A stretch of 64,000 nucleotides of DNA from Candidatus Latescibacterota bacterium (GTDB lineage: Bacteria; Latescibacterota; UBA2968; UBA8231). The notes beneath the pieces are model-generated. The model was not told where the DNA came from. It ran no database searches and saw only the letters and a program-made list of their open reading frames with translations. The stretch's first letter is position 1. Each line of letters begins with the position of its first letter. The position numbers and the translations under genes are program-made. The stretch covers positions 3,872,001-3,936,000 of the forward strand of contig CBDETK010000013.1 of the NCBI GenBank assembly GCA_965242865.1, read 5' to 3'. Of the stretch, positions 1 to 20,274 are shown piece after piece.

Positions 1-873
1 CCATTCCCGGAAGACCTCCCCCACTTGGCTCAGCGCATCGGACAGGGACTGCCCCGACCCTTTTCCCGGCCCGGTCAGGTGCCCATAGAGGGTCCCAGAA
101 ATAACCCAGTTGTGCGTCATCACCCCCGCGAGGGGTACGGACGAGATGGCCCCAAATACGACAGTGTGCTTCAATCGGGCGGCCAGCGACGGGGTGCGAC
201 GGACCAACAGCATGAGGACGCCGAAGCCGATCAGCACCACGCCCGGGTAGCGGGTCAGCGCGGCCAGTGCGGTAAAAACCGCGCCCCACAGCAGGGGCGT
301 CCGCTCGCCGCGCTGCAGGAAGGCCGCTAACTGGATCAAGGCGAGGAGCGTCAACAGGACGAAGAGGGAGTCGGTCATGAGGCGCGACGCGAGCTCGCTC
401 AAGGGCAGGGCAACCGCGATGGTTGCGCCGGCGGCCACTGCCAGCCATCGCGCCCGGAGATTCGAGCGCAGATAGCCCCCCGCGGCGAGGATGGTCAGCC
501 CAAAGGCGGTGGCGTTGATCCACCGACCCGCGGCCAGCGGCTCAATGCCAACCCAACCGCCAGCCGCCAGCAGCAGAGGGAACAAAGGTGCCCATTCCAC
601 CAGCGGGCGGCCCCAGGCATCCCGCCAGCCCTCTCCTGCGAGGAAGTTCAGCGCCGTAGATAGGAAAACTAGGGAGTCCATTTCTACCGACGGGCCGTAG
701 GGGGCGGTGCGGATGAGAATGTGGGCGGTGCCTAGCCCAGCGAGGACGACGATGAGCAGCGCGAAGGGATCGCGCCCGAACCGGGCGATCCACTCGAATG
801 CGGAGCATTTTGCCGCAGAGAGGGTAAATCTCCCTCCCTCCCTAATTCTCATAAATTTGTTAAAAATAATCAC
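1..873 (-). CDS. GT-C/ArnT-PMT-like multi-TM membrane glycosyltransferase, paralog 1 (3' end beyond window edge)
   Basis: Manual translation from GTG 873 gives ..MRIREGGRFTLSAAKCSAFEWIARFGRDPFALLIVVLAGLGTAHILIRT.., collinear with ORF 1002..3050 and open to position 1. Confidence 0.75.
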   Translation of the reverse strand, partial: MIIFNKFMRIREGGRFTLSAAKCSAFEWIARFGRDPFALLIVVLAGLGTAHILIRTAPYGPSVEMDSLVFLSTALNFLAGEGWRDAWGRPLVEWAPLFPLLLAAGGWVGIEPLAAGRWINATAFGLTILAAGGYLRSNLRARWLAVAAGATIAVALPLSELASRLMTDSLFVLLTLLALIQLAAFLQRGERTPLLWGAVFTALAALTRYPGVVLIGFGVLMLLVRRTPSLAARLKHTVVFGAISSVPLAGVMTHNWVISGTLYGHLTGPGKGSGQSLSDALSQVGEVFREW

Positions 874-1001
874 TTATGTCGTCTTCTTAGTGTAGTAGTC
901 AAGTGCGCCACGGCCTTTTTTACCCATAGTACTCAATTGAGGTCGCTCATGGGCCTAGACGAGGAGGTCGGCGCGTCCCTTCAGCGGTGGGGCGGCGGCC
1001 A

Positions 1002-3050
1002 TCACCGGCTCGGCGAAAACTCCGCGTCCCAGAGGGTGCGGTTCTCGTTGGCAATCCACTGGCCGACCCGGATGCGGTCGATGGCATAGGCGGGCAGATG
1101 CGCGATCGCGATACACTGGTCGCCGCGCCGAATGCCGCGCCAGTTGAAATGAAAGCCGAGGTTGTCAAAGCCGTACCGCTGGCGGGAGCGCGAAAGGCCG
1201 CCCGGGTCGGCCGGGGTGACGTGCAAAACGAACTTGGCCTGCGTGTCGGCGGAAGCACACGGCTGTTTGAGGTACGTCAGCTTGCGTCCGTTGCGGTACA
1301 CGTCCCAGTCGGAGCGGACGACCCGCTCGCCGACCTGTGCGAGGAGTTGGTCCACGTAGGATTGTTTGCAGGCGCGATGCCTTTCCGCGTCGAACGGTTC
1401 GGTCGCCGCGGTCGTTAGGCGGAACACCACCCCGTCGGATAGCTCGGCCACGGGTTCCACGCCGGGCAGGCAGCGGAGGTCCAAGGCGTCGTAGGCGTAA
1501 GAAGGCTTTTGATGCTGGAGCCAAACGATATATGCGCCATCGCCCTCGGTCCTCCGCATTATGTGCGGTATCAACTGGTGAATCTTGCCCGGGAGATATT
1601 GGTGCTTTCCCGGGGGGGCGGTCCGATCCCAAAACCAAGTAAGTTGGTTGTGTTGGCTGTAAATCCTGCTGTCGCTATCGCTAAGGTGGAGCCTGATATA
1701 ATTCAGGGCCTCGGAAGATTCATAGTCGGAGCCATTGAGCGTCCAGCTTTTAAACCCTTCTCTCCATGCTTGGTAGGTAATACGGAGGTTTCTATGCACC
1801 GAGAAGCCGCCGTGGGCGAGGGCGGCGAGCAAGACGAGGGACGCCAGACCGCAGGCGGCGCGGCCCTGTCCCGCCGCCTTAATGGACAGGAACCGGTCCA
1901 GCAAGAACGCGGCCACCAACAGCAGCGGCACATATACCGGCAGTAGGTAGCGGCTGTCGATGCCCTGCCTAACCGTGAAAGGCACGACAGCGACCATGAA
2001 ACTGAGATAGGCTAGGGCGAACCCCGCGAATGGGAACACCGGCCCCAAACGGAAATAGGCCGGCGCGGCCTTTGGGGCCGGCTGGCGACCGTGCAGGACG
2101 ACCGCGGCGCCGGCTAGCCCGACTGCGGCGACCGCCAACCACAGCAGGTACGCCACCCCATCCGGCGCGTTCGGGGGGGCGACCCACTCGCCGAACACCT
2201 CGGCGATCTGGTGCAGCCCAGCGGATAGAGACTGCCCGGACGCGCCCCGCCTCCCGGTCAGAGTCCCGGAGACCGCCCAGTTGCGCGTCATCACCCCCGC
2301 GAGGGGCAAGGATGCGATGGTGCTAAATACAACGGCGTCTTTCAACCGGATGACCAGCGGCGAGGTGCGCCGCACCAGCAACAGCAGGACGCCGGTGCCG
2401 ATCAGGACCACGCCCGGCCAACGGGTCACCGCGGTCAGCCCGGTAAAAACCGCACCTAACAGCAGGGGTGTCTGCCCGCCGCGATGCAGGAAGGATGCCA
2501 ATTGGACCAAGGCGAGGAGAGTCAACAGGACAAGGAGGGGCTCGGTCATGAGGCGTGACGCGAACTCGCTCAAGGGCAGGGAGGCCGCGATGGTCGCGGT
2601 GGCGGCCAGTGTCAGCCACCGCGACCGGAGATTTGAGCGCAGCCAACCGCCCGAGGCGAGGATGGTCAGCCCGAAGGCGGTGGCGTTGATCCATCGACTC
2701 GCCGCCAGCGGCTCAATGCCGACCCAACCGAAGGCCGCCAGCAGCAGGACGAACAAGGGCGGCCATCCCACCAACGGGCGGCCCGTGAAATCCTGCAAGC
2801 CCTCTCCCGCGAGGACATTTATGGTCGTGGACAGGAAAACCATGAAATCCCCGCGGACTTCTAGGCCGTAGGTGGCAGTGCGGACGAGGATGTGGGCGGT
2901 GCCCAGCCCGGCGAGGACGACGATGAGCAGCGCGGAGGGGTCGCACCGAAACCGGGCGATCTGCTTGAATGCGGAGCATTTTGCCGCAAAGAGGGTAAAT
3001 CTCCCCCCCCCCCCCCCCCCCATTCTCATAAATTTAGTAAAAACAATCAC
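1002..3050 (-). CDS. GT-C/ArnT-PMT-like membrane glycosyltransferase with C-terminal extracytoplasmic domain, paralog 2
   Basis: 682 aa; many TM segments, WPPLF, 'LMTEPL', 'TRWPG', 'SRYLLP' motifs typical of family 39/83-like enzymes; soluble Cys-containing C-terminal domain. Confidence 0.7.
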   Translation of the reverse strand: MIVFTKFMRMGGGGGGRFTLFAAKCSAFKQIARFRCDPSALLIVVLAGLGTAHILVRTATYGLEVRGDFMVFLSTTINVLAGEGLQDFTGRPLVGWPPLFVLLLAAFGWVGIEPLAASRWINATAFGLTILASGGWLRSNLRSRWLTLAATATIAASLPLSEFASRLMTEPLLVLLTLLALVQLASFLHRGGQTPLLLGAVFTGLTAVTRWPGVVLIGTGVLLLLVRRTSPLVIRLKDAVVFSTIASLPLAGVMTRNWAVSGTLTGRRGASGQSLSAGLHQIAEVFGEWVAPPNAPDGVAYLLWLAVAAVGLAGAAVVLHGRQPAPKAAPAYFRLGPVFPFAGFALAYLSFMVAVVPFTVRQGIDSRYLLPVYVPLLLVAAFLLDRFLSIKAAGQGRAACGLASLVLLAALAHGGFSVHRNLRITYQAWREGFKSWTLNGSDYESSEALNYIRLHLSDSDSRIYSQHNQLTWFWDRTAPPGKHQYLPGKIHQLIPHIMRRTEGDGAYIVWLQHQKPSYAYDALDLRCLPGVEPVAELSDGVVFRLTTAATEPFDAERHRACKQSYVDQLLAQVGERVVRSDWDVYRNGRKLTYLKQPCASADTQAKFVLHVTPADPGGLSRSRQRYGFDNLGFHFNWRGIRRGDQCIAIAHLPAYAIDRIRVGQWIANENRTLWDAEFSPSR
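3003..3021 (-). repeat. G19 homopolymer in the 5' coding region (in frame, MGGGGGGR)
   Basis: 19 consecutive C on + strand. Confidence 0.9.
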
Positions 3051-3174
3051 TTACGTTGTTGTCCTTAGTATAGTGGTCAGGGTCAGGGTGCGCCACGGCC
3101 TTTTTTTGCTCATAGTACTTAACTCAATCAATGCGGTGATGTAAAGAACGGCCCGGCGAGTAGGATGTCCTGTA

Positions 3175-3963
3175 TCACCGGCCCGGCGAAAACGCCGCGT
3201 CCCAGAGGGTGCGGTTCCCGTTGGCAATCCATTGGCCGACTCGGATGCGGCCGATGGGGTAGCCGGGCAGTGGGGCGGTCGCGATACACTGGTCGCCGAC
3301 CCGGAGACCGCGCCGGTCGAAATAGAAGCCGAGGTTGTCGTAGTCGTACCGCCTGCGGGGCTCTGACAGGTCTGCCGGGCGTGCTAGGTCTTCCGGGTCG
3401 GCGGGGGTGACGTGCAAAACGAACTTCGCCTGCACATCGGCGCGGGTGCAGGGCTCTTTGAAGTAGATCAGCTTGCGCCCCTTGCGGTACACATCCCAGC
3501 CGGCGCGAACCACCGGATCGCCAGCCTGTTGGATGAGTTGCTCCGCGTAGCGTTGTTTGCAGGCGCGATGCCGGTCCGCATCAAAGGGTTCGGCCGTCGT
3601 TACGCGGAACACAACGCCATCGGATAGCTCGGCCACGGTTTCCACGCCGGGCAGGCAGCGGATGTCCAAGGCGTCGTAGGCGTAAAAAGCCCTTTCATTC
3701 TGGAGCCAAACGATATGAGCATCGTCGGGCCATCGCATTATGAGCGGCATCAACTTGCGAAACCACGGGAGAAACTTGTGCCTTCCCAAGGCGGCGGTCC
3801 GATCCCGATCCCACCACCAAGTAAGGTAAGCGTTGTTGCTATAAATTCTGCCCTCGCGAAGGTTGGTTCTGATGTAATTCAGGGTCTCGGAAGGTTCCCA
3901 GTAGGAGCCATTGATCGTCAAGTATTCAAACCCGGCTCTCCATGCTTGGCGGGTAATGCGGAA
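3175..3963 (-). pseudogene. 5'-truncated third paralog retaining only the C-terminal extracytoplasmic domain
   Basis: RITRQAWRAGFEYLTINGS.. matches RITYQAWREGFKSWTLNGS of paralog 2; an in-frame TAA lies just upstream and no TM domain is present. Confidence 0.75.
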
Positions 3964-4102
3964 TTACATGATTTATGCCGGTCTCAGAGGATCGGGATGG
4001 AATCGCGTGTCAGCAGTCGGGACGGGCTTAGCCGTGGCAAGCCCGATATAGGGGCAACTCTTGTGATTGTCCTCTTGCGACTGCCGCTATAGAGCACCCC
4101 TT

Positions 4103-5485: not shown

Positions 5486-5496
5486 GCGGCCCACGC

Positions 5497-6516
5497 TCAA
5501 CTCGCCATAACTTCGGCCACGGCAATCAGTTCGCCCCCGCGCCGCGCCGACTCCCATCCCGCCAGCACCGGGGCCAGCGAATAGAGGCCATCGGCATAGT
5601 CGTTGAGGAGCAGGGCGCGGTTGCCGGTGCGCACGGCCTCAATGAAGACGCGGTCTTGCTCAAACCACGGGTCGAATTCCTCCGGCGCATACACGACCTC
5701 GCCATTGACTTCAATCCGGTCGTACATCCACAGCGCCAAGTAGCCCCCTTCGTAAAAAACAGTGAAGCGCGGCTCGTCGCCCGGGGTCGCAGGCGTGGTG
5801 GCGAGGAATGTCGAGGTCATGGTCGCCCCGTTGGCTAACAAAAAGTTAAACGAACACGACAGCGGCGCGTTGTACCGAGGGGGGTGGTAGTAAAACGCTT
5901 GGGCTTGGGTGACATTGAGGCCGCTCATAAAGCGCACGTAGTCAACGGCGTGAACGCCCCAGTCAAAGGCCGTGCCGCCGGCTTTGTCCATCTGGTAGTG
6001 CCAACTGTGCGGATCGGGCACGTCGGCTTCGAGCAGGGGCAGGCCGGATGTGCTTTGGAAGCGAATGTGGGTAATGGCCTTATCTGCGAGTAGGCGACGG
6101 GCTTCCTGAAAGAGCGGGCGGTAGCGCTCGCGGAAACAGACCGTTGCGATCGCGCCGCCCTCGGCGACCGCAGCGGCGATGCGCCGCGCAACGGCCATGC
6201 TGGTCGCTTGCGGCTTCTCGCTGAAGAGGTGGATGCCCCGGGCGGCGGCCGTAGCTTCCACATCGGTGCGAGCAAAAGCTGGCACCACCGAGTAGAGCGC
6301 GTCGAGCTGCTCTTTTGCGAGCATCTGGTGCGGGTCTGGATAGGTGCGGGCGATGGAGAATTTCTGTGCGGTCACGGCGAGGTTCTCTGGGTTGGGGTCA
6401 CTCGCGGCGACGAGCTCGACGTCGGCGAGCGTCCTCAAGTTGGGCAGGTGCGTTTGGTTAGCGAAACGGCCAGTGCCATAGATGCCGACGCGCACCGGGC
6501 GATTGTTTGCAGCCAT
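5497..6516 (-). CDS. Gfo/Idh/MocA family oxidoreductase
   Basis: VGIYGTGRFA Rossmann motif, 'SEKP', 'DWGVHAVD'. Confidence 0.9.
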   Translation of the reverse strand: MAANNRPVRVGIYGTGRFANQTHLPNLRTLADVELVAASDPNPENLAVTAQKFSIARTYPDPHQMLAKEQLDALYSVVPAFARTDVEATAAARGIHLFSEKPQATSMAVARRIAAAVAEGGAIATVCFRERYRPLFQEARRLLADKAITHIRFQSTSGLPLLEADVPDPHSWHYQMDKAGGTAFDWGVHAVDYVRFMSGLNVTQAQAFYYHPPRYNAPLSCSFNFLLANGATMTSTFLATTPATPGDEPRFTVFYEGGYLALWMYDRIEVNGEVVYAPEEFDPWFEQDRVFIEAVRTGNRALLLNDYADGLYSLAPVLAGWESARRGGELIAVAEVMAS

Positions 6517-6648
6517 GGGAAATCCTTTGTTGATCAGCCTTTATGCGAAGCGAAATGGGCAAGAAAAGAAAAAAGGGGCGTACGCGCCAGACCGCTTTGA
6601 GGCGGGTCGCGGGGCAGTATTAGAGGCTATGCGCCCAATGCAAAGCCC

Positions 6649-6677
6649 TTGCGTCCTATACGTCATTGGCGCATACT
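6649..6677 (+). promoter_or_regulatory. sigma70-type promoter with overlapping imperfect palindromic operator for the TA operon
   Basis: TTGCGT(6649)-17 nt-CATACT(6672); TATACGTCA-T-TGGCGCATA palindrome at 6657-6675. Confidence 0.55.
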
Positions 6678-6684
6678 ACGATGT

Positions 6685-7002
6685 ATGGTATTCGTCGAAA
6701 CCCCGATCTTCACGAAGGAGATCTTGACACTCTTACCCGATGAGGGCTATCGAGCAATGCAACTCGCGCTCCTATTCCGCCCGGAATCAGGAGAGATTAT
6801 TCCGGGTAGTGGTGGATTGCGAAAATTGAGATGGAAACTGCCGTACACTGGCCAACGAGGTGGTCTCCGTGTGATCTACTATTGGGATAAGCCATCCGAG
6901 GTCCTTTATATGCTGTGGGTGTATCGCAAGAGCCGACAAGAAGATCTCACCCCTCGACAATGCAAACTGCTTAGTACACTCGTAAAGGAGTATCTAGCAT
7001 GA
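6685..7002 (+). CDS. higB: Type II TA toxin, RelE/HigB family
   Basis: MVFVETPIFTK..GEIIPGSGGLRKLRW..GQRGGLRVIYY; toxin upstream of an HTH antitoxin. Confidence 0.85.
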   Translation: MVFVETPIFTKEILTLLPDEGYRAMQLALLFRPESGEIIPGSGGLRKLRWKLPYTGQRGGLRVIYYWDKPSEVLYMLWVYRKSRQEDLTPRQCKLLSTLVKEYLA

Positions 7003-7289
7003 ATGAGCGCGACTTTGACCAACTTATAGCTAGCGTTAAGCAAGCCGGAGCGATCAAGCGCGGCAAGATGAAGCCAGGGCGTAGGATCCAGATGAATCCC
7101 GCCGATATTAAGATGATTCGCAAGAAACTAGATAAATCTCAATCGGAATTCGCCTTGATGATTGGTGTCAGCGTCTCTACCTTGCAGAATTGGGAGCAGG
7201 GACGCCGGCGACCCGAGGGACCAGCTCGGGCCCTACTGAAAATTGCGTCGGAGAATCCCGAAACGGTGGCGCAGTCGTTAAGTGCTTAA
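6999..7289 (+). CDS. higA: Type II TA antitoxin, HigA/XRE HTH
   Basis: 'SQSEFALMIGVSVSTLQNWEQGRRRPEGPA'; ATGA overlap with the toxin. Confidence 0.88.
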   Translation: MNERDFDQLIASVKQAGAIKRGKMKPGRRIQMNPADIKMIRKKLDKSQSEFALMIGVSVSTLQNWEQGRRRPEGPARALLKIASENPETVAQSLSA

Positions 7290-7372
7290 CTTTGTAGATG
7301 CAAGGGCGTTCATCGGCAAAACGGTCAATTCGAGCTGTCCGTAACACGCAAAGCGATATAAAAAAGAAATCC

Positions 7373-8035
7373 ATGCCATTTAAGATTGCGGACGATCCGG
7401 CTGTCGATTATCGGGAGTTGGTACGGACCGCCTATAACCGATGTGCGATGGATTACGCTCGGCAAAGGCGTACTACACCCGGAGCGGAACTCAGCTTCGT
7501 AACGGACCGCCTGACACCCGGTTCAAAAATTCTCGATGTCGGCTGTGGTGCGGGTATTCCAGTCGCCCAACATCTTGCAAGGACGTTCAGCCTCACCGGG
7601 ATCGACATCTCCTCGAGCATGATAGCCCTAGCCCGAAAAAATGTCCCCGCGGCCCAATTCGTCCTCGCCGACGTAGTAAAGACCGAATTTTCCGCGAGCA
7701 GCTTTGATGCCATTGTCAGCTTTTACGCGATCTTCCACATCCCCAGACAGGAGCATCTGAACCTCTTTCGTCGATTTGCACAGTGGCTTCGACCCGGCGG
7801 CCTCCTGCTGTTTACGGTTGCGAGGCAAGACGACGGGCCGGGATACACTGAAGACGACTTCTTCGGCGAGACCATGTACTGGAGCAACTTTGGTCCCGCG
7901 ACCTACAGGACGTTTCTCGCTGAGACAGGATTTCAGGTTGAACAGGAAGGTATTGTAGGCGGAGGATTCGGAAGTGTGGAGGCACCGGACGGGGAGGGGA
8001 TTCACCCATTTTTCTGCGCCGTTAAAAGCACGTAA
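7373..8035 (+). CDS. Class I SAM-dependent methyltransferase
   Basis: ILDVGCGAG motif I, 'GIDIS', 'FDAIVSFYAIFH', 'LRPGG'. Confidence 0.88.
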   Translation: MPFKIADDPAVDYRELVRTAYNRCAMDYARQRRTTPGAELSFVTDRLTPGSKILDVGCGAGIPVAQHLARTFSLTGIDISSSMIALARKNVPAAQFVLADVVKTEFSASSFDAIVSFYAIFHIPRQEHLNLFRRFAQWLRPGGLLLFTVARQDDGPGYTEDDFFGETMYWSNFGPATYRTFLAETGFQVEQEGIVGGGFGSVEAPDGEGIHPFFCAVKST

Positions 8036-8057
8036 CCCAATCTAGAAAGGATTACCC

Positions 8058-8459: not shown

Positions 8460-8468
8460 AGGGGTCAG

Positions 8469-9454: not shown

Positions 9455-9495
9455 GAAAGTGACAATATCTCTGATTGGGAGAGTAGCAAATCGAA

Positions 9496-10119: not shown

Positions 10120-10155
10120 GAATTCACGCGGCGAGACGCGCTTGACGAAGCTCGC

Positions 10156-12929: not shown

Positions 12930-13670
12930 GCCATCCCAGTAATAACCTGCTCTACCTCGGCAACGGTCGTCTCCTTGGGATCGATGTCGGCGGCGACGAC
13001 GCGGCCTTGGCGCAGCACCACGATCCGGTCCACAACCTCAAAGACGTGGTGGATGTTGTGCGCGATAAAAATGCAGGAGTGGCCCGAGTCGCGGGCGTTG
13101 CGGACGAAGCGCAAGACGCCTTGGGTCTCGGCCACTCCTAGGTTGTTGGTCGGCTCGTCGAGAATGATCAGCTCGCTATCGAAATACATGGCGCGCAATG
13201 GCCACGGATTGACGCTCGCCGCCCGACAACGCGCCAATGGGCGTCGTGGGGGGAATGTCCTTTTCAATGCCCACCTGATTGAGCAGGGCACGGGCCACCT
13301 TGGCCATGGCGTCTTGGTCCATGCGCCCCAAAAACGCCGGGCCTTTTAGGGGCTCGCGGCCTAAGAAAAAATTCCGCGCAATGGACAGTTCCGCTACGAG
13401 GGCGGAGTCTTGGTAGATGGTCTCAATGCCGTAGCCAATGGCGTCGGCCGTGCTCTTTATGTCGGCTCTCGCGCCGCGAATGAAGATGGCACCGCTACTG
13501 GCGGGGACGGCCCCAGAGAGAATTTTGATCAGGGTGGATTTACCGGCCCCATTGTCGCCGAGCAAGCCGACGATTTCGCGCTCGTTGACCGTCAGGTGGA
13601 CGTTTTCGAGGGCATGCACCCGGCCGTAGGACTTGCTGATGTTTTTCATCTGGACTAGTGGGGTAGTCAA
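12926..13670 (-). pseudogene. Sugar ABC transporter ATP-binding protein, frameshifted
   Basis: Walker A GDNGAGKS and LSGGERQ in ORF 13176..13670; Walker B IILDEPT and H-loop in ORF 12926..13291; apparent 2-bp loss in a GC run near 13192. Confidence 0.85.
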
Positions 13671-13673
13671 AGG

Positions 13674-15825
13674 TCAGTCACCCCCGATAAAGTTGGCGAT
13701 GGCGCGGGCTTCGGCTTCAGTGATATTCAACGACGACTTGAATGTGCCCGGGGCAAACGCCCGCGGATTGGTGAGAAACCGCTCCAAACTATCTGGCGTC
13801 CACACCTCGTCTCGCGAGCGGAGGGCGTCTGAGAACAGGTAGCCGCTGGCTGCGCCCGCCCGCCGACCCACCACCCCGACCAGATGCGGCCCCCTGCCGT
13901 GCTGCTCGACATTCAAGCTATGACAACCGCTGCAATGCGCGTCGTATAGCTGAGTGCCAGTCGCCGCGACGGTCTCCACCGTATCCGGGCAGTCAATCGT
14001 ATAGACGCTGTTCGACTTAGCCTCATTACTACAGTGGGTGTAGGATCGGCTCAGGAAATGGATCTGCCCCCCATCGGCCAATAACGCGAGACGTCGATCC
14101 GGCATTTGCGCCAGATCCCGGATACGGGCACCAACTCCAATGCGCTCAACGTATTGTACCTCCGTGCCATCGCGGCGGACGCGAAAGAGCGCGTGGCCGC
14201 GATGTGCTGCGCCGGAAAGCGAACCGATCAGCAGATCGTCTTTCCACAGGGGGAACAACCGCTCGTCATTGACGATGATGCCGGAGATGCCGATGGACGG
14301 CACCCACGCGAAAACGGGCGTTATAAAGCCATCGTGGCATCCCACCTCTTCGTCGTTGGGCAGGATAACTTCTCTACCATACCCGATGCCATACGTAACC
14401 TGCGGCCAACCGTAATTGCCGCCCGGTTCCAGCACGTTGAGTTCATCGCCGCCCCGCGGTCCGTGCTCGGTTTCCCACAAGGTGCCGGCCGCGTCCCGGG
14501 CGAATCCCTGCGGGTTGCGGAGGCCGAAGGCCAGCGTCTCCGCCCGGCCAGTCTCGATTTCGATACGGACGAGCTTGCCCAAGTGCGAGTCTGGGTCTTG
14601 AGCGTACTCAGAGAGTTTTTGATCTCCAATTACGACCAACAAGTGGCCGGGGCTGTCCGTCACCATCCGGCCGCCTGCTTGCTCGGATGCGGCACTCAGG
14701 CAAGGCTCCGCATCAAAGATCGTCCTCCACGCCGACGATACCGACACGTCCGTGCCTTGTTGCACAAGCGTCGTAGCGGACAACCTGAACCGGATGCACT
14801 CGCCGGTGAAATAGTGATGCGTCACAAACAGTTCATATTGCCCCGCCGAATGCTGTTTCAACAAAATGTCGGCCACTCGAAACAGGTACGAGCCGAAATT
14901 TGCTTGGTCCGGGTGTACTTGGAGTTCCTCCTTATTCATCGGCACGTTCCCTTCGAGATACACCACCTCCCGGTTTGGGCGCACCAGCGCGAACTTCCCC
15001 CGCGGCGTTGCCACGAGCAAGTCGTTGCCCAACGGCGCGATAGCACCACCTCTCACGGGATCCTGCCGGAGCCGGACCCACACTGATTGCAGTTTATACA
15101 AGTGCGTCTTGAGTTCCTTGGCGGGACCGACGACGCCCAACACCGCTGTCGCCGAGTACGACGCGCCCTCTTTGTCATAGTCCACCTGCACTGACACGCG
15201 CTTCCCTTGCATGTCCGGCCCCATGAAGTACTGCCAAGACGGTCGATCTGGATTCCTCGGCAACACCTTGCAATCAGACCCATCCGCACTACAAATAAAC
15301 CAATGCCACGCCGACCGATTCACAAATGGACGCCGATTGTATAAGCCAACCTCTACGGTTTCTCCCACCAACAGCGGTACGCCGCCGCTAATCGCATCGG
15401 CTGGGGTCGCTTGCAGCACGGGGGCTGTTATCGCAACCGGGGCCGACCACTCGGAGGGCCCCGCGGCGTTGACAGCGGCCACCCGAACCTCATACTCCAT
15501 GCCGCTCATCGCCCATCTATCTGTGATGGTATAGGGCGAAGAGGGCGTGGTGTATGAGCTCCAAGCGGGAACGAGTTGGTTTTTCGGTCGGATGGCGACC
15601 TTGTAACTCGTCGCGCCGGGGATTGTGCGCCAAGCAACGGTCAGGCGTCGGTTGGCAGTGCTCACGGCGACTTGGTACTGGTTATCGGTGGTGCTTTTGA
15701 TGTCCAAACAGCCAGCGGATGCCAACAACATGAGCAAGAGAGCAAGGGCCGAAATTTGGGAGCGAATTTTCGGGGGGGGGGGGCAACTTATTGTTTTTCA
15801 ATGACTTACGTAAATTATCTAACAT
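13674..15825 (-). CDS. FN3 + PQQ-dependent glucose/sorbosone dehydrogenase + cytochrome c lipoprotein, paralog A (out of frame at the C12 tract)
   Basis: FN3 'YEVRVAAVNAAGPSEWS', GSDH 'GLRNPQG..ETEHGPRGGDELN..GGNYGWP', CSGCH, lipobox SAGC; the ATG 15825 homologous to paralog C's start is shifted relative to ORF 13674..15737. Confidence 0.8.
15772..15783 (-). repeat. C12 homopolymer in the leader (frame-breaking)
   Basis: 12 G on + strand; 11 or 14 would restore the frame. Confidence 0.85.
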
Positions 15826-15894
15826 TATTGCTCCAAAGGTGTCCAACCGGGAACAGATATTATAAAGCAAAACCTTATTACACGCTCCCCGGAT

Positions 15895-17805
15895 TCATCG
15901 CCCCGTATCCGCGCAGTCAATCGCATAGACGCTGCGGTTCCTCTTAGCCTCATCGTTGCAGTGGGCGTAGGAGCGGCTCAGAAAATGAACCTGTCCCCTA
16001 TCAACCAACAGCGCGAGACGTCGATCCGGCATTTGCGCCAGATCCCGGATTCGGTCGCCAATGTCAATGCGCTCGACGTATTGCACAGCCGTGCCATCGC
16101 GGCGGACTCGAAAGAGCGCGTGGCCGCTAGCCGAGGTGCCGGAAAGCGAACCGATCAGCAGGTCGTCTCTCCACAGGGGGAACCATCGCTCGTCATTGAC
16201 GATGAGGCTGGAGATGCCGATGGACGGCACCCACGCGAAAGCGGGCTTTGTGAAGCCATCGTGGAGCCCCACCTCTTCGGCTCGGGTCACATTAACCCTT
16301 CTAACCTTTTTTCCATACCCAACGCCGTACGTAACCTGCGGCCAACCGTAGTTGCCGCCCGCTACCAGCACGTTGAGTTCATCGCCGCCCTGCGGTCCGT
16401 GCTCGGTTTCCCACAGGTTGCCGTCCTCGTCCCGGGCGAGCCCCTGCGGATTGTGGAGGCCCAAGGCCAGCGTCTCCGCCCGCCCGGTCTCGATTTCGAC
16501 GCGGACGAGCTTGCCCAAGTGCGAGTTCGAGGCTTGAGAGCGGCTCCCATAACCATGATCTCCAATTGCGACCAACAAGTGGTCGGGGCCGTCGGTCACC
16601 ATCCGGCCGCCCGCTACTTCTCCGCGAATGCCGGATATGGGGGGGATGCAGGGTTCGGCGTCGAATATCGTTCTCCACGCCGACGAGACCGACACGGCCG
16701 CGCCTTGTTGCACAAGCGTCGTAGCGGACAACCGGAATCGGAGGCACGTACCAGTGAAATAGTGATGCGTCACAAACAGTTCATATTGCCCCGCCGAATG
16801 CCGCTTCAACAAAATGTCGGCCACTCGAAACTGGCTCAAGGGGAGATTTTCCCGGTCCGGGTGTGCTTGGAGTTCGGCCCTGTTCATCGGCACGTTTCCC
16901 GCGAGATAGGCCACCTCCCCGGTTGAGGACACCAGCGCGAGCCGCCCCCACGGCGTGGCCACGAGCAAGTCGTTGCCCAACGGCGCGAGAGCACCGCCGC
17001 GGGCGTGATCCCATTGAAGCCAGACCTGCAACGATTGCAGATCATACAAGTGCGTCGGGAGCGGCTGGGGGCGGCTTAGAGCGGGGGGCAGGCTACCGCA
17101 CTGCGGACCATACAGGTGCGTCGTGGGGGCCTCGGCCGAGCCGACGACGCCCAACACCGCCATCGCCGAGTACGACGCGCCCTCTTGGTCGTAGTCCACC
17201 TGCACCGACAGGCACTTCCCCTGCATGGCCGGCTCCATGAAGTACTGCCAAGACGGTCGATTTTGACTCCTCGGCAATACCTTGCAATCAGACCCGTCCT
17301 CGCTGCAAATAGACCAATGCCACCGCGACCTGTTCACAAATGGATGCCGACTGCGCAAGGTAACGACTACGGTTTCTCCCACCAGCGGAGGCGCGAAGCC
17401 GCCAATCGCATCGGCCGGAGCCGCTTGGAGAGAGGGAGCTGTTATCGCAACCGGGGCCGACCACTCGGATTGCCCCTCGGCGTTGGCCGCGGCTACCCGA
17501 ACCTCATACTCCATCCCGCTCATCGCCCACATCTTCGCGATGGTATAGGGCGAGGAGGGCGCGGTGTATTCGCGCCAAGCGGGGACGAGTTGGTTTTTCG
17601 GTCGGATGGCGATCTGATAACTCGTCGCGCCGGGGATTTCGCGCCAAGCGACGGTCAGGCGTCGGTTGGAAGCACTAATGGCGATTTCGGTGGGCGCACC
17701 GAGGGCTTCCACCTTGTCGGGAGGGCCGTTGGCATCGCATGCCAACAGCGTGAGCAATAGGGCAAGCGCCGAAACTCGGGAGCGAATTTTCGGGGGAAAA
17801 CTCAT
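15895..17805 (-). CDS. FN3 + glucose/sorbosone dehydrogenase lipoprotein, paralog B (no cytochrome c domain)
   Basis: Lipobox LLAC, same FN3 and GSDH motifs, ends VYAIDCADTGR* before the heme domain. Confidence 0.85.
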   Translation of the reverse strand: MSFPPKIRSRVSALALLLTLLACDANGPPDKVEALGAPTEIAISASNRRLTVAWREIPGATSYQIAIRPKNQLVPAWREYTAPSSPYTIAKMWAMSGMEYEVRVAAANAEGQSEWSAPVAITAPSLQAAPADAIGGFAPPLVGETVVVTLRSRHPFVNRSRWHWSICSEDGSDCKVLPRSQNRPSWQYFMEPAMQGKCLSVQVDYDQEGASYSAMAVLGVVGSAEAPTTHLYGPQCGSLPPALSRPQPLPTHLYDLQSLQVWLQWDHARGGALAPLGNDLLVATPWGRLALVSSTGEVAYLAGNVPMNRAELQAHPDRENLPLSQFRVADILLKRHSAGQYELFVTHHYFTGTCLRFRLSATTLVQQGAAVSVSSAWRTIFDAEPCIPPISGIRGEVAGGRMVTDGPDHLLVAIGDHGYGSRSQASNSHLGKLVRVEIETGRAETLALGLHNPQGLARDEDGNLWETEHGPQGGDELNVLVAGGNYGWPQVTYGVGYGKKVRRVNVTRAEEVGLHDGFTKPAFAWVPSIGISSLIVNDERWFPLWRDDLLIGSLSGTSASGHALFRVRRDGTAVQYVERIDIGDRIRDLAQMPDRRLALLVDRGQVHFLSRSYAHCNDEAKRNRSVYAIDCADTGR

Positions 17806-18009
17806 TGATACGACAATCCTCTAACACTGTCGAGCCAACGATGTCCATGCGTAACCTAACGGATTATAGAAGAATCAAACGTTAGCAGCAAAAAGGCCAG
17901 CGAAACCCGCTCGGCCCCCAGTGCCTTGACGCGAAAGAGCAGATTAAACCGAGCAGAGGAAGCAATGACGGAATGGGCAAACGCCCCCGAAGGCCGCACA
18001 GCGGCTGGC

Positions 18010-20211
18010 CTAGTTCCCGATGAAGTCGGCGATGGCGCGGGCTTCGGCTGGGGTGAGGTGCAACAACGGCTTGGAGGTGCCTAGGGCAAACACCTGCGGA
18101 TTGGCGAGAAACCGCTCCAAGCGGGGCGGCGTCCACACCTCGTCTCGCGAGCGGAGGGCGTCCGAAAACGGGTAGCCGCCCACCGAGCCGATGCGCCGGC
18201 CAAGCACCCCGACCAGATGCGGACCCCTGCCGTGTTGCTCGGCATTCAGGCTGTGACAACCGCTGCAATGCAGGCCGTATAGCTGAGCCCCGGTCGCCGC
18301 GACCGCCCCTACCGTATCTGGTATCGAGTTCACCCCCGATTCGCAGTCGATCGCATAGACATTGCGGTCCCATTGTGAGTCATCGGCGCAGGGGGCGTAG
18401 GATCGGCTCAGGAAACGGACCCGCCCCCCATCGAACAATAGCGCGAGACGTCGATCCGGCATTTGCGCCAGATCCCGGATCTGGGCACCAACTTCAATGC
18501 GCTCGACGTATTGTACATCCGTGCCGTCGCGGCGGACTCGAAAGAGCGCGTGGCCGCTAGCCGAGGTGCCAGAAAGCGAACCGATCAGCAGGTCGTCTCT
18601 CCACAGGGGGAACCATCGCTCGTCATTGACGATGAGGCTGGAGACGCCGATGGACGGCACCCACGCGAAAACGGGCTTTGTGAAGCCCTCGTGGCGTCCC
18701 ACTTCTTCGATTAGGGGCACGATAACCTTTCCTGCATTCCCAACGCCATAAGTAACTTGCGGCCAACCGTAATTGCCGCCCGCTACCAACACGTTGAGTT
18801 CATCGCCGCCCTGCGGTCCGTGCTCGGTTTCCCACAAGGTGCCGTCCCCGTCCCGGGCGAGCCCCTGCGGATTGCGGAGGCCGAAAGCCAGCGTCTCAGC
18901 CCGGCCGGTCTCGATTTCAATGCGGACGAGCTTGCCAAAGTGCAAGTCCGGGTCTTGAGCGTGGCTATCATAACCATGATCTCCAATTACGACCAATAAG
19001 TGGTCGGGGCCATCCGTCACCATCCGGCCACCTGCTTGGAGTCCTCCGTTGTGGGCGATTGGTAAGCAGGGTTCTGCGTCGAATATCGCTTTCCACGCCG
19101 GCGAGACCACAACGGCCGCGCCTTGTTGCACAAGCGTCGTAGCGGACAACCGGAACCGGAGGCACTCGCCGGTGAAATAGTGATGCGTCACAAACAGTTC
19201 ATACCGCTCCGCCGAATGCTGCTTCAACAAAATGTTGGCCACTCGAAATCGGTCCAAGCGAAAATCTGCTTTGTCCGGGTGCGCTTGGAGTCCGGCCTGA
19301 TTCATCGGCACATTCCCCTCGAGATAGGCCACTTCGCCGGTTGGGCGCACCAGCGCGAGCTTCCCCCACGGCGTTGCCACGAGCAAGTCGTTGCCCAACG
19401 GCGCGAGGGCCCCACCGAGTGCGTGATCCCATCGAAGCCAGGCCCATGCCGATTGTAGATCATACAAGTGCGTCGTGAGTGTCCGGGCGGCACCGACGAC
19501 GCCCAACACCGCTGTCGCTGAGTACGACGCACCCTCTTTGTCATAGTCCACCTGCACCGACACGTGCTTTCCTTGCATGGCAGGCTCCATGAGGTACTCC
19601 CAAGTCGGTTGCCCTTGACGCTTCGGCAATACCTTGCAATCAGACCCGTCCGCGCTACAAATAAACCAATGCCACCGAGATCGGTTCGCAAATGGACGCT
19701 GGCTACCCAAGCCGACCACTGTGAATTCTCCCACCAACGGGGGCGAGGGGCCGTCAATGTCAATCGCATCGGCCGGGGCCGCTTGGAGCGTGGGGGCTGT
19801 TATCGAAGCTAGGGCCGACCACTCGGATGGCCCCTCGGCGTTGACTGCGGCCACCCGAACCTCATACTCCATGCCGCTCATCGCCCCCTCATATGTATAG
19901 GGCGAGGAAGGCGTCGTGTACTCGCGCCAAGCGGGGACGAGTTGGTTTTTCGGTCGGACCGCGACCTTGTAACGGGTCGCGCCAGGGACTTCGCCCCAAG
20001 CGACGGTCAGGCGTCGGTTGGAAGCACTAATGGCGATTTCGGTGGGCGTACCGAAGGCTTCCACCTTGTCGAGGGTGTTTTTGACGTACATGCAGCCAGC
20101 GGATGCCAACAGCATGAGCAAGAGAGCAGTGCCGAAACTAGGAAAGCGGATTTTTCGGGGGGGGGGGATTAACTTATTGTTTTTAAACAACTTACGACAA
20201 TTATTTAACAT
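18010..20211 (-). CDS. FN3 + glucose/sorbosone dehydrogenase + cytochrome c lipoprotein, paralog C (in frame)
   Basis: MLNNCRKLFKNNKLIPPPRKIR..LLASAGC; GSDH motifs; CSGCH. Confidence 0.88.
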   Translation of the reverse strand: MLNNCRKLFKNNKLIPPPRKIRFPSFGTALLLMLLASAGCMYVKNTLDKVEAFGTPTEIAISASNRRLTVAWGEVPGATRYKVAVRPKNQLVPAWREYTTPSSPYTYEGAMSGMEYEVRVAAVNAEGPSEWSALASITAPTLQAAPADAIDIDGPSPPLVGEFTVVGLGSQRPFANRSRWHWFICSADGSDCKVLPKRQGQPTWEYLMEPAMQGKHVSVQVDYDKEGASYSATAVLGVVGAARTLTTHLYDLQSAWAWLRWDHALGGALAPLGNDLLVATPWGKLALVRPTGEVAYLEGNVPMNQAGLQAHPDKADFRLDRFRVANILLKQHSAERYELFVTHHYFTGECLRFRLSATTLVQQGAAVVVSPAWKAIFDAEPCLPIAHNGGLQAGGRMVTDGPDHLLVVIGDHGYDSHAQDPDLHFGKLVRIEIETGRAETLAFGLRNPQGLARDGDGTLWETEHGPQGGDELNVLVAGGNYGWPQVTYGVGNAGKVIVPLIEEVGRHEGFTKPVFAWVPSIGVSSLIVNDERWFPLWRDDLLIGSLSGTSASGHALFRVRRDGTDVQYVERIEVGAQIRDLAQMPDRRLALLFDGGRVRFLSRSYAPCADDSQWDRNVYAIDCESGVNSIPDTVGAVAATGAQLYGLHCSGCHSLNAEQHGRGPHLVGVLGRRIGSVGGYPFSDALRSRDEVWTPPRLERFLANPQVFALGTSKPLLHLTPAEARAIADFIGN
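20157..20167 (-). repeat. C11 homopolymer in the leader (in frame)
   Basis: 11 G on + strand. Confidence 0.85.
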
Positions 20212-20274
20212 TGCCAATCCAAATGTGCCCTTATGGGAGTCATCTTTTTTCTCTGCCACCCGCTAGCGCCTTTC

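What the first reader, a model, noticed from the sequence alone, without database searches (positions are those of the whole stretch)
820..20211. Shared 'AT-box + homopolymer' leader on two unrelated surface-protein arrays: candidate common phase-variation system
Seen: two non-homologous gene families have AT-rich 5' coding leaders in a GC-rich genome, each ending in a frame-setting tract. The tracts are G19 in GT paralog 2 (3003-3021), C12 in dehydrogenase A (15772-15783) and C11 in dehydrogenase C (20157-20167). Shortly upstream of each tract on the coding strand is the same box: ACGTAAGTGATTG (3044-3056) versus ACGTAAGTCATTG (15799-15811), 12/13 identical, with variants at 867-879 and 20185-20197. 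Known: G/C homopolymers in 5' coding regions drive slipped-strand ON/OFF switching in Neisseria, Campylobacter and Helicobacter. The box resembles the IHF consensus WATCAANNNNTTR on the opposite strand. Inference: a portable regulatory leader couples a protein-binding or pausing site to a slippery tract (DNA slippage or transcriptional slippage) and is reused on different envelope genes.
Basis: partly seen in the sequence, partly recalled or inferred. Interest (0 to 1): 0.82.

Follow-up and report, generated by a model that had tools for sequence, protein, structure and literature searches.

The report
Slippery tracts behind AT-rich gene leaders
Several envelope-related genes of this uncultured bacterium start with a short AT-rich leader followed by a long run of G or C, which most likely lets each gene switch on and off by slippage; the trick is well known, but here it sits in a new lineage and one leader type has moved between unrelated genes.

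Summary
The window's only three homopolymers of 8 nt or more are G19, C12 and C11 (coding strand). Each follows a 19-24% GC leader at the 5' end of a gene in a 59% GC window, and the 12/13 box is where stated.

The tracts lie in translated leaders, so their length sets the frame. GT2 (G19) and DH-C (C11) are in frame; DH-A (C12) is out of frame and stops after 47 codons.

Relatives show two leader types. A G-type sits on a putative GT-C glycosyltransferase family and recurs in a Latescibacterota MAG, with G26, G11AG9 or interrupted tracts. A C-type sits on the PQQ-dehydrogenase lipoproteins and also on an unrelated GT2 glycosyltransferase in another Latescibacteria MAG.

So a portable leader is supported for the C-type. 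The box shared by the G- and C-types is only weakly above chance (12 of 3000 shuffles in one test, 211 of 2000 in another). IHF binding, pausing and promoter roles have no support.

Best reading: slipped-strand contingency loci built on AT-rich translation-initiation leaders. This is a new variant of a known kind. Switching itself is not shown.

The parts
1002..3050 (-). GT paralog 2: putative GT-C type (PMT/PMT_2-like) membrane glycosyltransferase, 682 codons from GTG 3050. In frame through G19 as assembled (VIVFTKFMRMGGGGGGRF...).
   Evidence: ORF list and translation. Pfam gives no hit for this copy, but 11 of 30 family members hit PMT and 6 of 30 hit PMT_2 at E<=0.01. NCBIfam LA_3751/LA_3752 putative glycosyltransferase at 7e-06, below the cut-off.
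3003..3021 (-). G19 tract on the coding strand. It encodes the G of ATG plus six Gly codons. Lengths 3n+1 are in frame.
3022..3075 (-). G-type AT-rich leader: ACTAAGGA (purine-rich, Shine-Dalgarno-like), then the box ACGTAAGTGATTG (3056-3044) that contains start codon GTG 3050-3048, then GTTTTTACTAAATTTATGAGAAT.
   Evidence: Alignment A2 with 7 copies from OZ242005.1. The box position holding the first base of the start codon is always G or A, giving GTG or ATG.
1..873 (-). GT paralog 1 (runs off the window). It has the same leader (box ACATAAGTGATTA 879-867, GTG 873-871) but an interrupted tract (AGGG)3AG at 843-830. In frame.
3178..3963 (-). GT paralog 3: a C-terminal fragment only (matches residues 415-675 of GT2, 64% identity).
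   Evidence: tblastn
13674..15825 (-). DH-A: lipoprotein with fn3, a PQQ-type glucose/sorbosone dehydrogenase beta-propeller and cytochrome c. ATG 15825 is out of frame with the body as assembled (47-codon product). C11 or C14 would join it to KIRSQISALALLLMLLASAGC.
   Evidence: The public gene call starts inside the signal peptide (P0014).
15772..15783 (-). C12 tract on the coding strand (poly-Pro codons) in DH-A.
15784..15834 (-). C-type AT-rich leader of DH-A: GGAG (15834-15831), ATG 15825, box ACGTAAGTCATTG (15811-15799), then AAAAACAATAAGTTG. It contains the imperfect dyad AAGTCATTG-A5-CAATAAGTT.
15895..17805 (-). DH-B: same family without the cytochrome c domain. Decayed leader (GTG 17827, C5 at 17796-17792). 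Translated from ATG 17805, in frame.
18010..20211 (-). DH-C: same family, in frame from ATG 20211 through C11 (MLNNCRKLFKNNKLIPPPRKIRF... lipobox LASAGC).
   Evidence: PDB sequence hits: 7cdy 1.5e-30, 2g8s 6e-28, cytochrome c552.
20157..20167 (-). C11 tract on the coding strand in DH-C.
20168..20211 (-). C-type leader of DH-C, with box variant TCGTAAGTTGTTT (20197-20185) and AAAAACAATAAGTTAAT.

Best explanation
These are contingency loci, meaning simple-sequence phase-variable genes, in a Latescibacterota-like genome.

Each switchable gene begins with a short, translated, very AT-rich initiation leader. That leader ends in a G-rich or C-rich stretch which in some copies has become a pure homopolymer (G19, C11, C12 here; G26 and G11AG9 in a relative).

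Inferred: slipped-strand mispairing during replication changes the run by +/-1. This moves the start codon in or out of frame with the body. The body is a GT-C type membrane glycosyltransferase, or a dehydrogenase lipoprotein whose signal peptide lies behind the tract.

As assembled, GT2 and DH-C are ON and DH-A is OFF. GT1 and DH-B are locked ON by an interrupted or shortened tract.

The leaders come in two nucleotide-conserved types. The G-type belongs to the GT-C family; there the 'box' is the last six UTR bases, the GTG/ATG start and the next four bases. The C-type is on the dehydrogenases and has also been grafted onto a GT2-family glycosyltransferase in another Latescibacteria genome, so it behaves as a portable 5' module.

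The most likely job of the AT-rich part is to keep the ribosome-loading region unstructured next to a GC-rich body and a G/C run. It is less likely to bind a factor. Whether the CGTAAGT core shared by the two types reflects common descent, a common constraint or chance is open.
For: Shown:
- The window has only three homopolymers of 8 nt or more, all at 5' ends behind 19-24% GC leaders.
- Frames: GT2 and DH-C are open from the leader start, and DH-A stops after 47 codons.
- The [A/G]TG in the G-type box is in frame with the main ORF in 9 of 10 leaders. The exception is the G26 copy.
- One copy has AAGGAGG 9 nt upstream of that ATG.
- Tracts differ among homologous leaders: G19, (AGGG)3AG, G26, G11AG9, GGGGAGG, GAGAGGGGGAG.
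- C-type leader on a non-homologous gene: L015 2899 and 8107, in front of a PF00535 fragment (E 3.4e-13). The local-alignment score against DH-C was reached by 0 of 2000 shuffles.
- The same DNA is read in two frames: KNNKL in DH-C and KTISY in L015. DH homologues P0020 and P0031 read KTIIY. This points to nucleotide-level rather than peptide-level conservation.
- The GT2 homologue P0252 starts ..DRKLLENNNLHVPPS.
- In 352,805 nt of non-redundant Latescibacterota sequence, 5 of 30 CRTAAGT sites lie within 60 nt upstream of a G/C run of 9 or more. About 0.12% of positions qualify.

Indirect:
- Of 120 DH homologues, 21 carry the long leader in frame. A further 37 close ones are annotated from inside or after the signal peptide (MLLASAGC.., MYVK..), as is the window's own DH-A. 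This is the expected signature of an out-of-frame tract.
- 11 of 120 GT homologues start M[IV][IVG]F, and 4 have GGG within the first 16 residues.
Against: No read-level data exist, so length heterogeneity within a population, which is the defining property, is not shown.

Long homopolymers are the most error-prone feature of long-read assemblies. Any single ON/OFF call, including DH-A OFF and L012 OFF, may be off by one.

Most leaders have no homopolymer: 6 of the 8 leader-bearing GT copies in OZ242005.1. Only 8 of the 46 GT paralogs sampled there have the leader at all. The leader and the tract are therefore separable.

The enrichment count is inflated by paralogy and by the fact that the loci were fetched through the GT family.

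The leader changes fast between close orthologues. In P0004 versus DH-C, 7 of the 21 differences fall in the first 19 aligned columns. This fits weak constraint as well as module exchange.

Cross-type similarity is not significant in the gapped test.

The 'unstructured initiation region' role is inference. RNA folds gave no consistent picture.
Confidence: 0.6

Rival explanations
1. The CGTAAGT box is a sequence-specific cis element: an IHF-like or nucleoid protein site, a transcription-factor half-site, an alternative-sigma -10 element or a pause site. It acts together with the tract as one regulatory device on several envelope genes.
For: The core is kept in both leader types and across genomes. 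ACGTAAGTGATTG is exact in L012 and L013, and CGTAAGT is present in 4 of 5 C-type leaders. The C-type leader contains an imperfect dyad, AAGTCATTG-A5-CAATAAGTT. The 12/13 match was reached by 12 of 3000 shuffles. Conservation is at nucleotide level and independent of reading frame. One-mismatch IHF-like matches fall in all four leaders.
Against: In the GT family the box spans the start codon, and the varying base keeps a start codon (GTG or ATG). Translation therefore explains its conservation. In DH the box sits 12 nt inside the ORF, a different position relative to the start. There is no zero-mismatch IHF site in any leader, and the window total is not above chance (29 against 22.4 +/- 4.9; 10 of 100 shuffles reach 29). 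No sigma-70-type promoter was found at the leaders. Some leader-bearing GT copies lie only 30-60 nt behind the previous gene's stop codon. The box tolerates G/A changes in a 97%-identical orthologue (R to H). The gapped similarity test is not significant.
Confidence: 0.15
2. The runs are decoded rather than switched. RNA polymerase stuttering or ribosomal frameshifting on the G/C run yields a fixed mixture of in-frame and out-of-frame products from a stable DNA length.
For: Long homopolymers also cause transcriptional slippage (recalled general knowledge). DH-A is out of frame, yet its 688-codon body is intact. The G run can pair with a downstream ACCCUCU: GT2 fold z -2.46 and GT1 z -2.10.
Against: Tract lengths and interruptions differ at the DNA level between paralogs and orthologues, which is what DNA slippage with occasional locking predicts. 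Slippage by RNA polymerase is best documented on A/T runs (recalled). There is no known frameshift stimulator and no Rfam match. The consensus RNA structure of the G-type leaders is negligible at -1.3 kcal/mol.
Confidence: 0.1
3. There is nothing functional here. The AT-rich leaders are independent family quirks, the runs are neutral expansions or assembly errors in decaying paralogs, and the shared box is coincidence.
For: Both families are large and full of fragments: the GT3 fragment, the truncated GT2 fragment with TAG in L015, and many truncated gene calls. The gapped cross-type test is not significant. The leader evolves fast.
Against: All three runs in 64 kb sit at the same kind of place. 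The same leader plus run recurs in a genome whose GT proteins are only 54-62% identical. The gene bodies behind the runs are long and open, at 666-714 codons. The C-type leader is shared between unrelated genes, with 0 of 2000 shuffles reaching the score. Runs of 19-26 are far beyond neutral expectation.
Confidence: 0.1
4. The leader is a recombination site for cassette exchange or inversion, as in shufflon, vsa or fimS-like systems, and not a slippage device.
For: There are huge tandem arrays in which only a minority of copies has a leader: 8 of 46 in the sampled parts of OZ242005.1. The leader has been grafted onto another gene (L015). The leader region is a hotspot of change in a 97%-identical orthologue.
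Against: No inverted copy of the box or leader lies within 400 nt of any of the four leaders. All genes of both arrays are on one strand. No recombinase was found among the ORFs scanned in the window. Leaderless copies have their own start codons.
Confidence: 0.05

Closest known systems
Simple-sequence contingency loci of Neisseria, Haemophilus, Campylobacter and Helicobacter: poly-G/C runs in the 5' coding region of surface-glycan glycosyltransferases and outer-membrane proteins. This is recalled. For Neisseria I saw only the search listing and abstract start of PMC5953494.
   Same: A G/C homopolymer just inside the ORF, with frame-dependent ON/OFF. The target genes are glycosyltransferases and exported lipoproteins. 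Locked variants have interrupted runs.
   Different: The host is an uncultured Latescibacterota-like lineage with 59% GC. The runs are much longer (up to G19 here and G26 in a relative). The run is preceded by a nucleotide-conserved AT-rich leader that is shared by paralogs and, for one type, by unrelated genes. Switching has not been demonstrated here.
Neisseria opa genes: a pentamer repeat inside the signal-peptide coding region (recalled).
   Same: The repeat lies between the start codon and the hydrophobic core of an export signal, as in the DH lipoproteins (leader, Pro run, KIRSR, LALLLMLLA, lipobox).
   Different: Here it is a homopolymer and not a pentamer. There is a 14-codon AT-rich extension upstream of the run. 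The leader is also found on a cytoplasmic-face GT2 enzyme, so it is not part of an export signal.
gtrABC O-antigen glucosylation operons of Salmonella and Shigella phages: a GT2 bactoprenol glycosyltransferase plus a GT-C transferase, phase-variable through Dam/OxyR (recalled).
   Same: The enzyme logic is the same (a GT2 donor-maker plus a GT-C transferer), with ON/OFF control of a surface-glycan modification. In L015 a GT2 fragment and a PMT-like ORF are adjacent.
   Different: The switch mechanism differs (methylation pattern against run length). Here there are dozens of GT-C paralogs per genome. The acceptor is unknown.
Mycoplasma variable lipoprotein families (vlp, vsp, vsa) with a conserved 5' region and homopolymer or site-specific switches. 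This is recalled. I saw PMC2268961 only as a search listing.
   Same: A multigene family shares a conserved 5' end, and only some copies are switchable.
   Different: Those switches sit in promoters (poly-A) or use recombinase sites. Here the run is in the ORF and no inverted repeats were found.
Bacteroides invertible promoters shared by many unrelated loci (recalled).
   Same: It is a portable switching module reused on different envelope gene families.
   Different: That system uses inversion between inverted repeats by a recombinase. This was tested here and the repeats are absent.

Membership tests
Simple-sequence (slipped-strand) phase-variable locus | A homopolymer or short repeat long enough to be hypermutable (for G/C about 8 or more) | tested here: met
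   G19, C12 and C11 in the window. G26 and G11AG9 occur in homologous leaders of OZ242005.1.
Simple-sequence (slipped-strand) phase-variable locus | The repeat is placed so that a length change alters the reading frame or the promoter spacing | tested here: met
   The runs lie between the start codon and the gene body. GT2 and DH-C are in frame and DH-A is out of frame. 9 of 10 G-type leaders are in frame. No usable downstream start exists.
Simple-sequence (slipped-strand) phase-variable locus | Length polymorphism of the repeat within a population or between close strains | not testable with these tools
   Only differences between paralogs and orthologues were seen, plus 37 close homologues annotated from inside the signal peptide.
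Simple-sequence (slipped-strand) phase-variable locus | Reversible ON/OFF expression of the product | not testable with these tools
   This needs culture, a reporter or meta-omics data.
IHF binding site | A match to WATCAANNNNTTR, usually with an AT-rich 5' flank | tested here: not met
   Only one-mismatch matches occur in the leaders (3041, 15784, 15796, 17798, 20170). The window has 29 matches at one mismatch or fewer, against 22.4 +/- 4.9 in shuffles. The single exact match (32521) is elsewhere.
Invertible-promoter or site-specific inversion switch | Inverted repeats flanking the switch element, plus a recombinase | tested here: not met
   No inverted copy of the box or leader lies within 400 nt. 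No recombinase was found among the scanned ORFs.
GT-C fold glycosyltransferase (Pfam PMT PF02366 / PMT_2 PF13231) | A profile match above the curated cut-off, a polytopic N-terminal domain and a periplasmic C-terminal domain | tested here: inconclusive
   GT1 fragment: PMT_2 24.1 bits against a 26.1 cut-off. GT2: none. 11 of 30 relatives hit PMT and 6 of 30 hit PMT_2 at E<=0.01. The profile has no PDB sequence hit.
Soluble PQQ-dependent glucose/sorbosone dehydrogenase (PF07995) | A profile match above the cut-off | tested here: met
   DH-A 177.8, DH-B 157.9 and DH-C 160.7 bits against a cut-off of 25. fn3 is present in all three and cytochrome c in A and C. PDB hits: 7cdy 1.5e-30 and 2g8s 6e-28. 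Cofactor and substrate were not tested.
Bacterial lipoprotein | A signal peptide with a positively charged n-region, a hydrophobic core and a lipobox L-[AS]-[GA]-C | tested here: met
   Read directly: KIRSQISALALLLMLLASAGC (DH-A body frame), RKIRFPSFGTALLLMLLASAGC (DH-C) and KIRSRVSALALLLTLLAC (DH-B). No predictor was run.
Known RNA family (riboswitch, leader, frameshift element) | An Rfam covariance-model match at the gathering score | tested here: not met
   0 matches in the whole window.

The most novel reading that the evidence does not exclude
A roughly 40-50 nt 'phase-switch cassette' (AT-rich initiation leader plus an expandable G/C seed) is a mobile genetic module in Latescibacterota. 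Under this reading it is copied onto unrelated envelope genes: GT-C transferases, GT2 transferases and dehydrogenase lipoproteins. Its CGTAAGT core would be recognised by a dedicated factor that sets translation or slippage. Analogous 'ATGTA(C) + run' mini-leaders in co-sampled MAGs of other phyla would then be a community-wide convergent strategy for varying the cell surface.
Probability: 0.2. Interest if true: 0.8.

Novelty: new variant of a known kind. Interest (0 to 1): 0.5.

Why it matters
Phase variation by slippery repeats is textbook biology for a few host-adapted pathogens. It is hardly documented for uncultured environmental or symbiotic phyla.

Here a Latescibacterota-like genome and its relatives carry very long G/C runs at the start of glycan-modifying enzymes, with at least 46 paralogs in the sampled parts of one relative, and of exported dehydrogenase lipoproteins. 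This suggests stochastic switching of envelope features.

The leader module shared between unrelated genes hints that switchability itself can be transferred as a unit.

All of this is directly testable with existing long-read data, by comparing tract-length distributions per read.

Four literature searches found nothing on phase variation in this lineage. Passages of PMC12993501 mention neither homopolymers nor phase variation.

Tried and rejected
- **Inverted repeats around the four leaders:** none involves the box, so an inversion switch is rejected.
- **Sigma-70 consensus scan:** 0 sites in 780-3250 and one unrelated site in 15700-20400. By eye, TATAAT-like hexamers lie about 45-60 nt upstream of DH-A and DH-B, and TTGACA-N16-TATCGT lies about 170 nt upstream of the L015 leader. 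ECF-like GCAAC-N16-18-CGTA spacing is inconsistent between copies. A promoter role for the box was not pursued further.
- **Rfam:** 0 matches.
- **Single-sequence RNA folds:** GT2 z -2.46 and GT1 z -2.10 (the G run pairs with downstream ACCCUCU), but DH-A z +0.32 and DH-C z -1.43. The consensus fold of 9 G-type leaders was -1.3 kcal/mol, with 7 pairs and 1 compensatory change. No convincing structure emerged.
- **IHF consensus:** not above chance.
- **Whole-leader homology of G-type to C-type:** not significant in the gapped local-alignment test. My by-eye alignment (box, then T5 versus A5, then AATAA-TT-A) is therefore not claimed.
- **phmmer with the first 30 residues of DH-C against 1.84 billion representatives:** 0 hits at E<=0.001. 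The query is too short to find the leader on other families.
- **uORF upstream of GT1 and GT2 ending at the TAA of the box:** present in both window copies but, by my own hand reading of the L012 and L013 upstream sequences printed, not in those two. It was dropped as a mechanism.

Full report
**1. What is in the window**

The window has 58.8% GC. It holds exactly three homopolymers of 8 nt or more: 3003-3021, 15772-15783 and 20157-20167. All the genes concerned lie on the minus strand, so on the coding strand the runs are G19, C12 and C11.

Each run is preceded by an island of 19-24% GC, against 60-67% in the gene bodies. Third-position GC is 2/9 to 6/14 in the leaders and 70-81% in the bodies. 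The four leaders are among 19 AT-rich islands (40-nt windows with GC of 30% or less) found in the 64 kb.

The box ACGTAAGTGATTG (3056-3044) and ACGTAAGTCATTG (15811-15799) are the only exact matches to ACGTAAGTSATTG in the window. GT1 has ACATAAGTGATTA (879-867). The DH-C 'variant' TCGTAAGTTGTTT matches only 9 of 13.

**2. The genes**

GT1 (1-873, partial), GT2 (1002-3050) and a C-terminal fragment GT3 (3178-3963) form a tandem array.
- Pfam evidence for the family is weak. GT1 scores 24.1 bits on PMT_2, below the 26.1 cut-off, and GT2 has no hit.
- Among 30 aligned relatives, 11 match PMT and 6 match PMT_2 at E<=0.01.
- A family profile finds no solved structure by sequence.
- I therefore call them putative GT-C type membrane glycosyltransferases. 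They are not 'surface proteins'.

DH-A, DH-B and DH-C (13674-15825, 15895-17805, 18010-20211) are lipoproteins. Each has an fn3 domain and a PQQ-type glucose/sorbosone dehydrogenase propeller (158-178 bits against a cut-off of 25). A and C also have a C-terminal cytochrome c domain.

**3. The runs are in translated leaders and set the frame**

- **GT2.** It reads GTG ATT GTT TTT ACT AAA TTT ATG AGA ATG-G18-AGA TTT ACC and is open for 682 codons.
- **GT1.** It has the same leader with (AGGG)3AG in place of the run, and it is in frame.
- **DH-C.** It is in frame from ATG 20211: MLNNCRKLFKNNKLIPPPRKIRF..LLASAGC.
- **DH-A.** From ATG 15825 it runs through C12 into the wrong frame and stops after 47 codons. 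The body frame encodes KIRSQISALALLLMLLASAGC and would be joined by C11 or C14.
- **DH-B.** It has a shortened leader with C5 and uses ATG 17805.

Initiation downstream of the runs would leave only MLLASAGC of the DH signal peptide. In GT2 it would delete the first membrane helix.

**4. Relatives**

Protein searches returned hundreds of homologues of both families, all unnamed. The public gene calls for the window's own DH-A and GT2 (P0014, P0124) lie on a contig of 5,613,566 bp. At least eight further GT paralogs lie on a contig of that same length.

For the DH family, the N-termini of the 120 best hits divide as follows:

| N-terminus | Count of 120 |
|---|---|
| Long leader in frame (ML[DNY][ND][CFL][RH][KN].LK.N.L, Pro-rich, RKIRSR) | 21 |
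| Short start just before the Pro codons | 16 (2 look unrelated) |
| Begin inside or after the hydrophobic core | 42 (37 close relatives such as MLLASAGC.. or MYVK..; 5 distant) |
| Other, or no fn3 anchor | 41 |

The window's own DH-A gene call (P0014) belongs to the truncated class. There I can see that the cause is the C12 run.

For the GT family, 11 of 120 hits start M[IV][IVG]F. Four have GGG within the first 16 residues, among them a second paralog on the 5,613,566-bp contig (P0129, MGGGGGRFTLF..).

**5. DNA of relatives**

The single genome scan, made with a GT alignment, gave 55 loci. Thirteen are from a Candidatus Latescibacterota MAG (OZ242005.1, 54-62% protein identity). The rest are at 28-46% identity in MAGs of many phyla.

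The OZ242005.1 loci contain 46 distinct GT paralogs in tandem arrays. Eight of these have the G-type leader. Aligned with the two window copies, the consensus is ACTAAG.AT..GACGTAAGTGATTGTTTTTAATAAATTTATGAG followed by a G-rich stretch.

The base that begins the start codon is G or A in all ten leaders, giving GTG or ATG. That codon is in frame with the main ORF in 9 of 10, and the exception is the G26 copy (L012). One copy has AAGGAGG nine bases upstream.

In this family, then, the box is six bases of UTR, the start codon and the next four bases.

The G-rich stretch takes these forms: G19 (window), G26 (L012), G11AG9 (L011), GGGGAGG, GAGAGGGGGAG, GGAAGGGAGGGGAA and (AGGG)3AG. This looks like pure runs arising from, and decaying to, interrupted Gly/Glu/Arg codons.

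**6. A leader on an unrelated gene**

In L015 (Latescibacteria MAG OY282352.1) the sequence TTCGTAAGTTGTTAAAAACAATTAGTTACCCACCCCCCCC (2899) precedes an 89-codon N-terminal fragment of a GT2-family glycosyltransferase. A decayed second copy lies at 8107. The fragment matches PF00535 at 3.4e-13. It ends at a TAG and is followed three bases later by a PMT-like ORF.

- Against the DH-C leader the local-alignment score is 23, reached by 0 of 2000 shuffles.
- The flanks are unrelated.
- A one-base difference makes L015 read LLKTISYPPPP where DH-C reads LFKNNKLIPPP. DH homologues P0020 and P0031 likewise read KTIIYPP. The nucleotides are kept while the peptide is not.
- Close full-length GT2 homologues start MNSPSHNRT or MSYPTPTPHNRT, that is, inside the leader remnant. 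P0252 starts ..DRKLLENNNLHVPPS.

This is the firm evidence that a leader plus run is portable between gene families.

**7. Is the box shared between the two leader types?**

The result depends on the test.
- An ungapped 13-mer test on 69-nt leaders gave 12 of 3000 shuffles in the same orientation and 21 of 3000 in either orientation. This is for the best of four pairs; the other three reach only 9-11/13.
- A gapped local-alignment test on 45-nt leaders gave 211 of 2000 for GT2-DHA, and 245 to 1995 of 2000 for the other six cross-type pairs.
- In 352,805 nt of non-redundant Latescibacterota sequence, CRTAAGT occurs 30 times. Five of these lie within 60 nt upstream of a G/C run of 9 or more, where 0.12% of positions qualify (nominal binomial 3e-10). 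These five represent only two or three independent lineages, and the loci were chosen through the GT family.
- Of the six run-bearing places in that sample, five have the motif. L017's G10 has a different 'ATGTATGTG' leader.

I regard a real relationship between the two types as possible but unproven.

**8. What the box is not**

- The IHF consensus is matched only with one mismatch in the leaders, and the window total is not above chance.
- There are no flanking inverted repeats.
- There is no sigma-70 consensus at the leaders and no Rfam family.
- RNA folds are inconsistent (z -2.46 and -2.10 for GT2 and GT1; +0.32 and -1.43 for DH-A and DH-C). The consensus fold of the G-type leaders is negligible.
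- Six of the eight leader-bearing GT copies in the relative have no homopolymer. The leader exists independently of the run.
- In a 97%-identical orthologue of DH-C (P0004), 7 of the 21 differences fall in the first 19 aligned columns. One of them interrupts the run. The leader is thus a hotspot of change, not a rigid binding site.

**9. Mechanism**

Shown: the position of the runs, the frames, the conservation and portability of the leaders, and the variation in run length and purity among homologous leaders.

Inferred from established knowledge of simple-sequence contingency loci (recalled): runs of this length gain and lose bases at high frequency during replication, which gives heritable and reversible ON/OFF switching.

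Also inferred: the AT-rich leader serves translation initiation, as an unstructured ribosome-loading region in a GC-rich message next to a G/C run.

The ON/OFF states read from one assembly may be wrong by one base.

**10. Comparison and novelty**

The closest known systems are the poly-G/C contingency genes of Neisseria, Haemophilus, Campylobacter and Helicobacter, and Neisseria opa, where the repeat lies inside the signal-peptide coding region. The closest functional analogue is the phase-variable gtrABC glycan-modification operons. All of these are recalled; PMC5953494 was seen only as a listing with abstract start.

The differences here are:
- the lineage;
- the length of the runs;
- the scale of the GT-C paralog arrays;
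- a nucleotide-conserved AT-rich leader that is shared within families and, for the C-type, between unrelated genes.

The literature searches found no report for this lineage (section 'why it matters'). I rate this a new variant of a known kind, with interest 0.5.

**11. Left open**

- No reads, so switching itself is untested.
- The GT fold is unconfirmed (structure prediction and the Atlas were unavailable).
- Between-sample tract variants could not be looked up.

Noticed in passing
L001-L013 (OZ242005.1), e.g. L009 10053-16974 and L010 10321: The GT-C-like family is hugely expanded: 46 distinct paralogs in about 222 kb of sampled sequence, in head-to-tail arrays. In five copies the stop of one gene overlaps the start of the next (..CCGGTGATCGCC.., GTG/TGA overlap), which suggests translational coupling along the array.
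   Followed up: partly
L018 5655-5666; L018 16213-16226; L023 17900-17913 and 17982-17997; L044 17460-17474; L017 17828-17837: In MAGs of other phyla (Dehalococcoidia and others) and one Latescibacteria MAG, long G/C runs sit directly after a different mini-leader, ATGTA(C). L018 has ATGTAC-G12 in front of a DH-family lipoprotein (54% identical to DH-C) and is out of frame as assembled. A small membrane protein carrying ATGT(A)-C10..16 recurs in three genomes.
   Followed up: partly
L025 9943-9963; L026 11222-11240 and 12792-12807; L028 11063-11084; L038 14417-14438; L049 2135-2164: There are very long runs (C21, C19, C16, G22, G22, C30) in loci of distant phyla. L025's C21 lies 26 nt upstream of the GT anchor behind ATGATCAGGATAG, out of frame as assembled. 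In L026 and L028 the runs lie in the middle of the GT gene, about 880-1120 nt in. In all, the 55 loci (1.19 Mb) hold 30 G/C runs of 9 or more.
   Followed up: partly
L015 3172-3180 and 8378-8386: Both copies of the leader-bearing GT2 fragment end in ..LSRNFG followed by TAG, where full-length homologues continue with H (LSRNFGHE/HQ). A PMT-like ORF starts at an ATG three bases later. This is a repeated GT2-fragment/GT-C junction that could act as a coupled upstream ORF.
   Followed up: partly
window 13176-13670 and 20240-22176: The three DH genes sit between the permease (PF02653) and binding-protein (PF13407) genes on one side and an ABC ATPase gene (PF00005) on the other, all on the same strand. 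It looks as if the DH array was inserted into a transporter operon.
   Followed up: no
window 3057-3120 and 880-937 (minus strand): Upstream of both GT leaders a short ORF (21 and 18 codons; MSKKRPW.. and MGKKGRG..) ends at the TAA of the box, directly abutting the GTG start. It stays open in both copies despite indels. By my own reading of the L012 and L013 upstream sequences it has no counterpart there.
   Followed up: partly
P0004 versus window 18010-20211: In a 97%-identical orthologue of DH-C, one third of all differences (7 of 21) are concentrated in the first 19 aligned columns, the leader and run. The run is interrupted there (SLPTP instead of IPPP).
   Followed up: yes
window 44873-56445, also 32413-35570: This is a defence-island-like stretch. 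It holds PglZ (PF08665), a DNA methylase (PF01555), a 1251-residue DUF6079 protein, an AAA_15/DUF3696 ATPase, and further upstream an Mrr restriction endonuclease, a ParA-like ATPase and a Schlafen/AlbA_2 protein. Part of it is AT-rich.
   Followed up: no
window 6500-10150: This is a lower-GC block (about 50-52%) on the plus strand between the two arrays. It holds a weak RelE-like ORF and an HTH/MqsA-like ORF, two methyltransferases, a GFA-family protein and an FMN reductase.
   Followed up: no
window 36444-40731; 24044-26829, 31589-32377, 60609-61409: There is a Kelch-repeat protein and a VIT-VWA protein. Four PhyH-family dioxygenase genes are scattered over the window.
   Followed up: no
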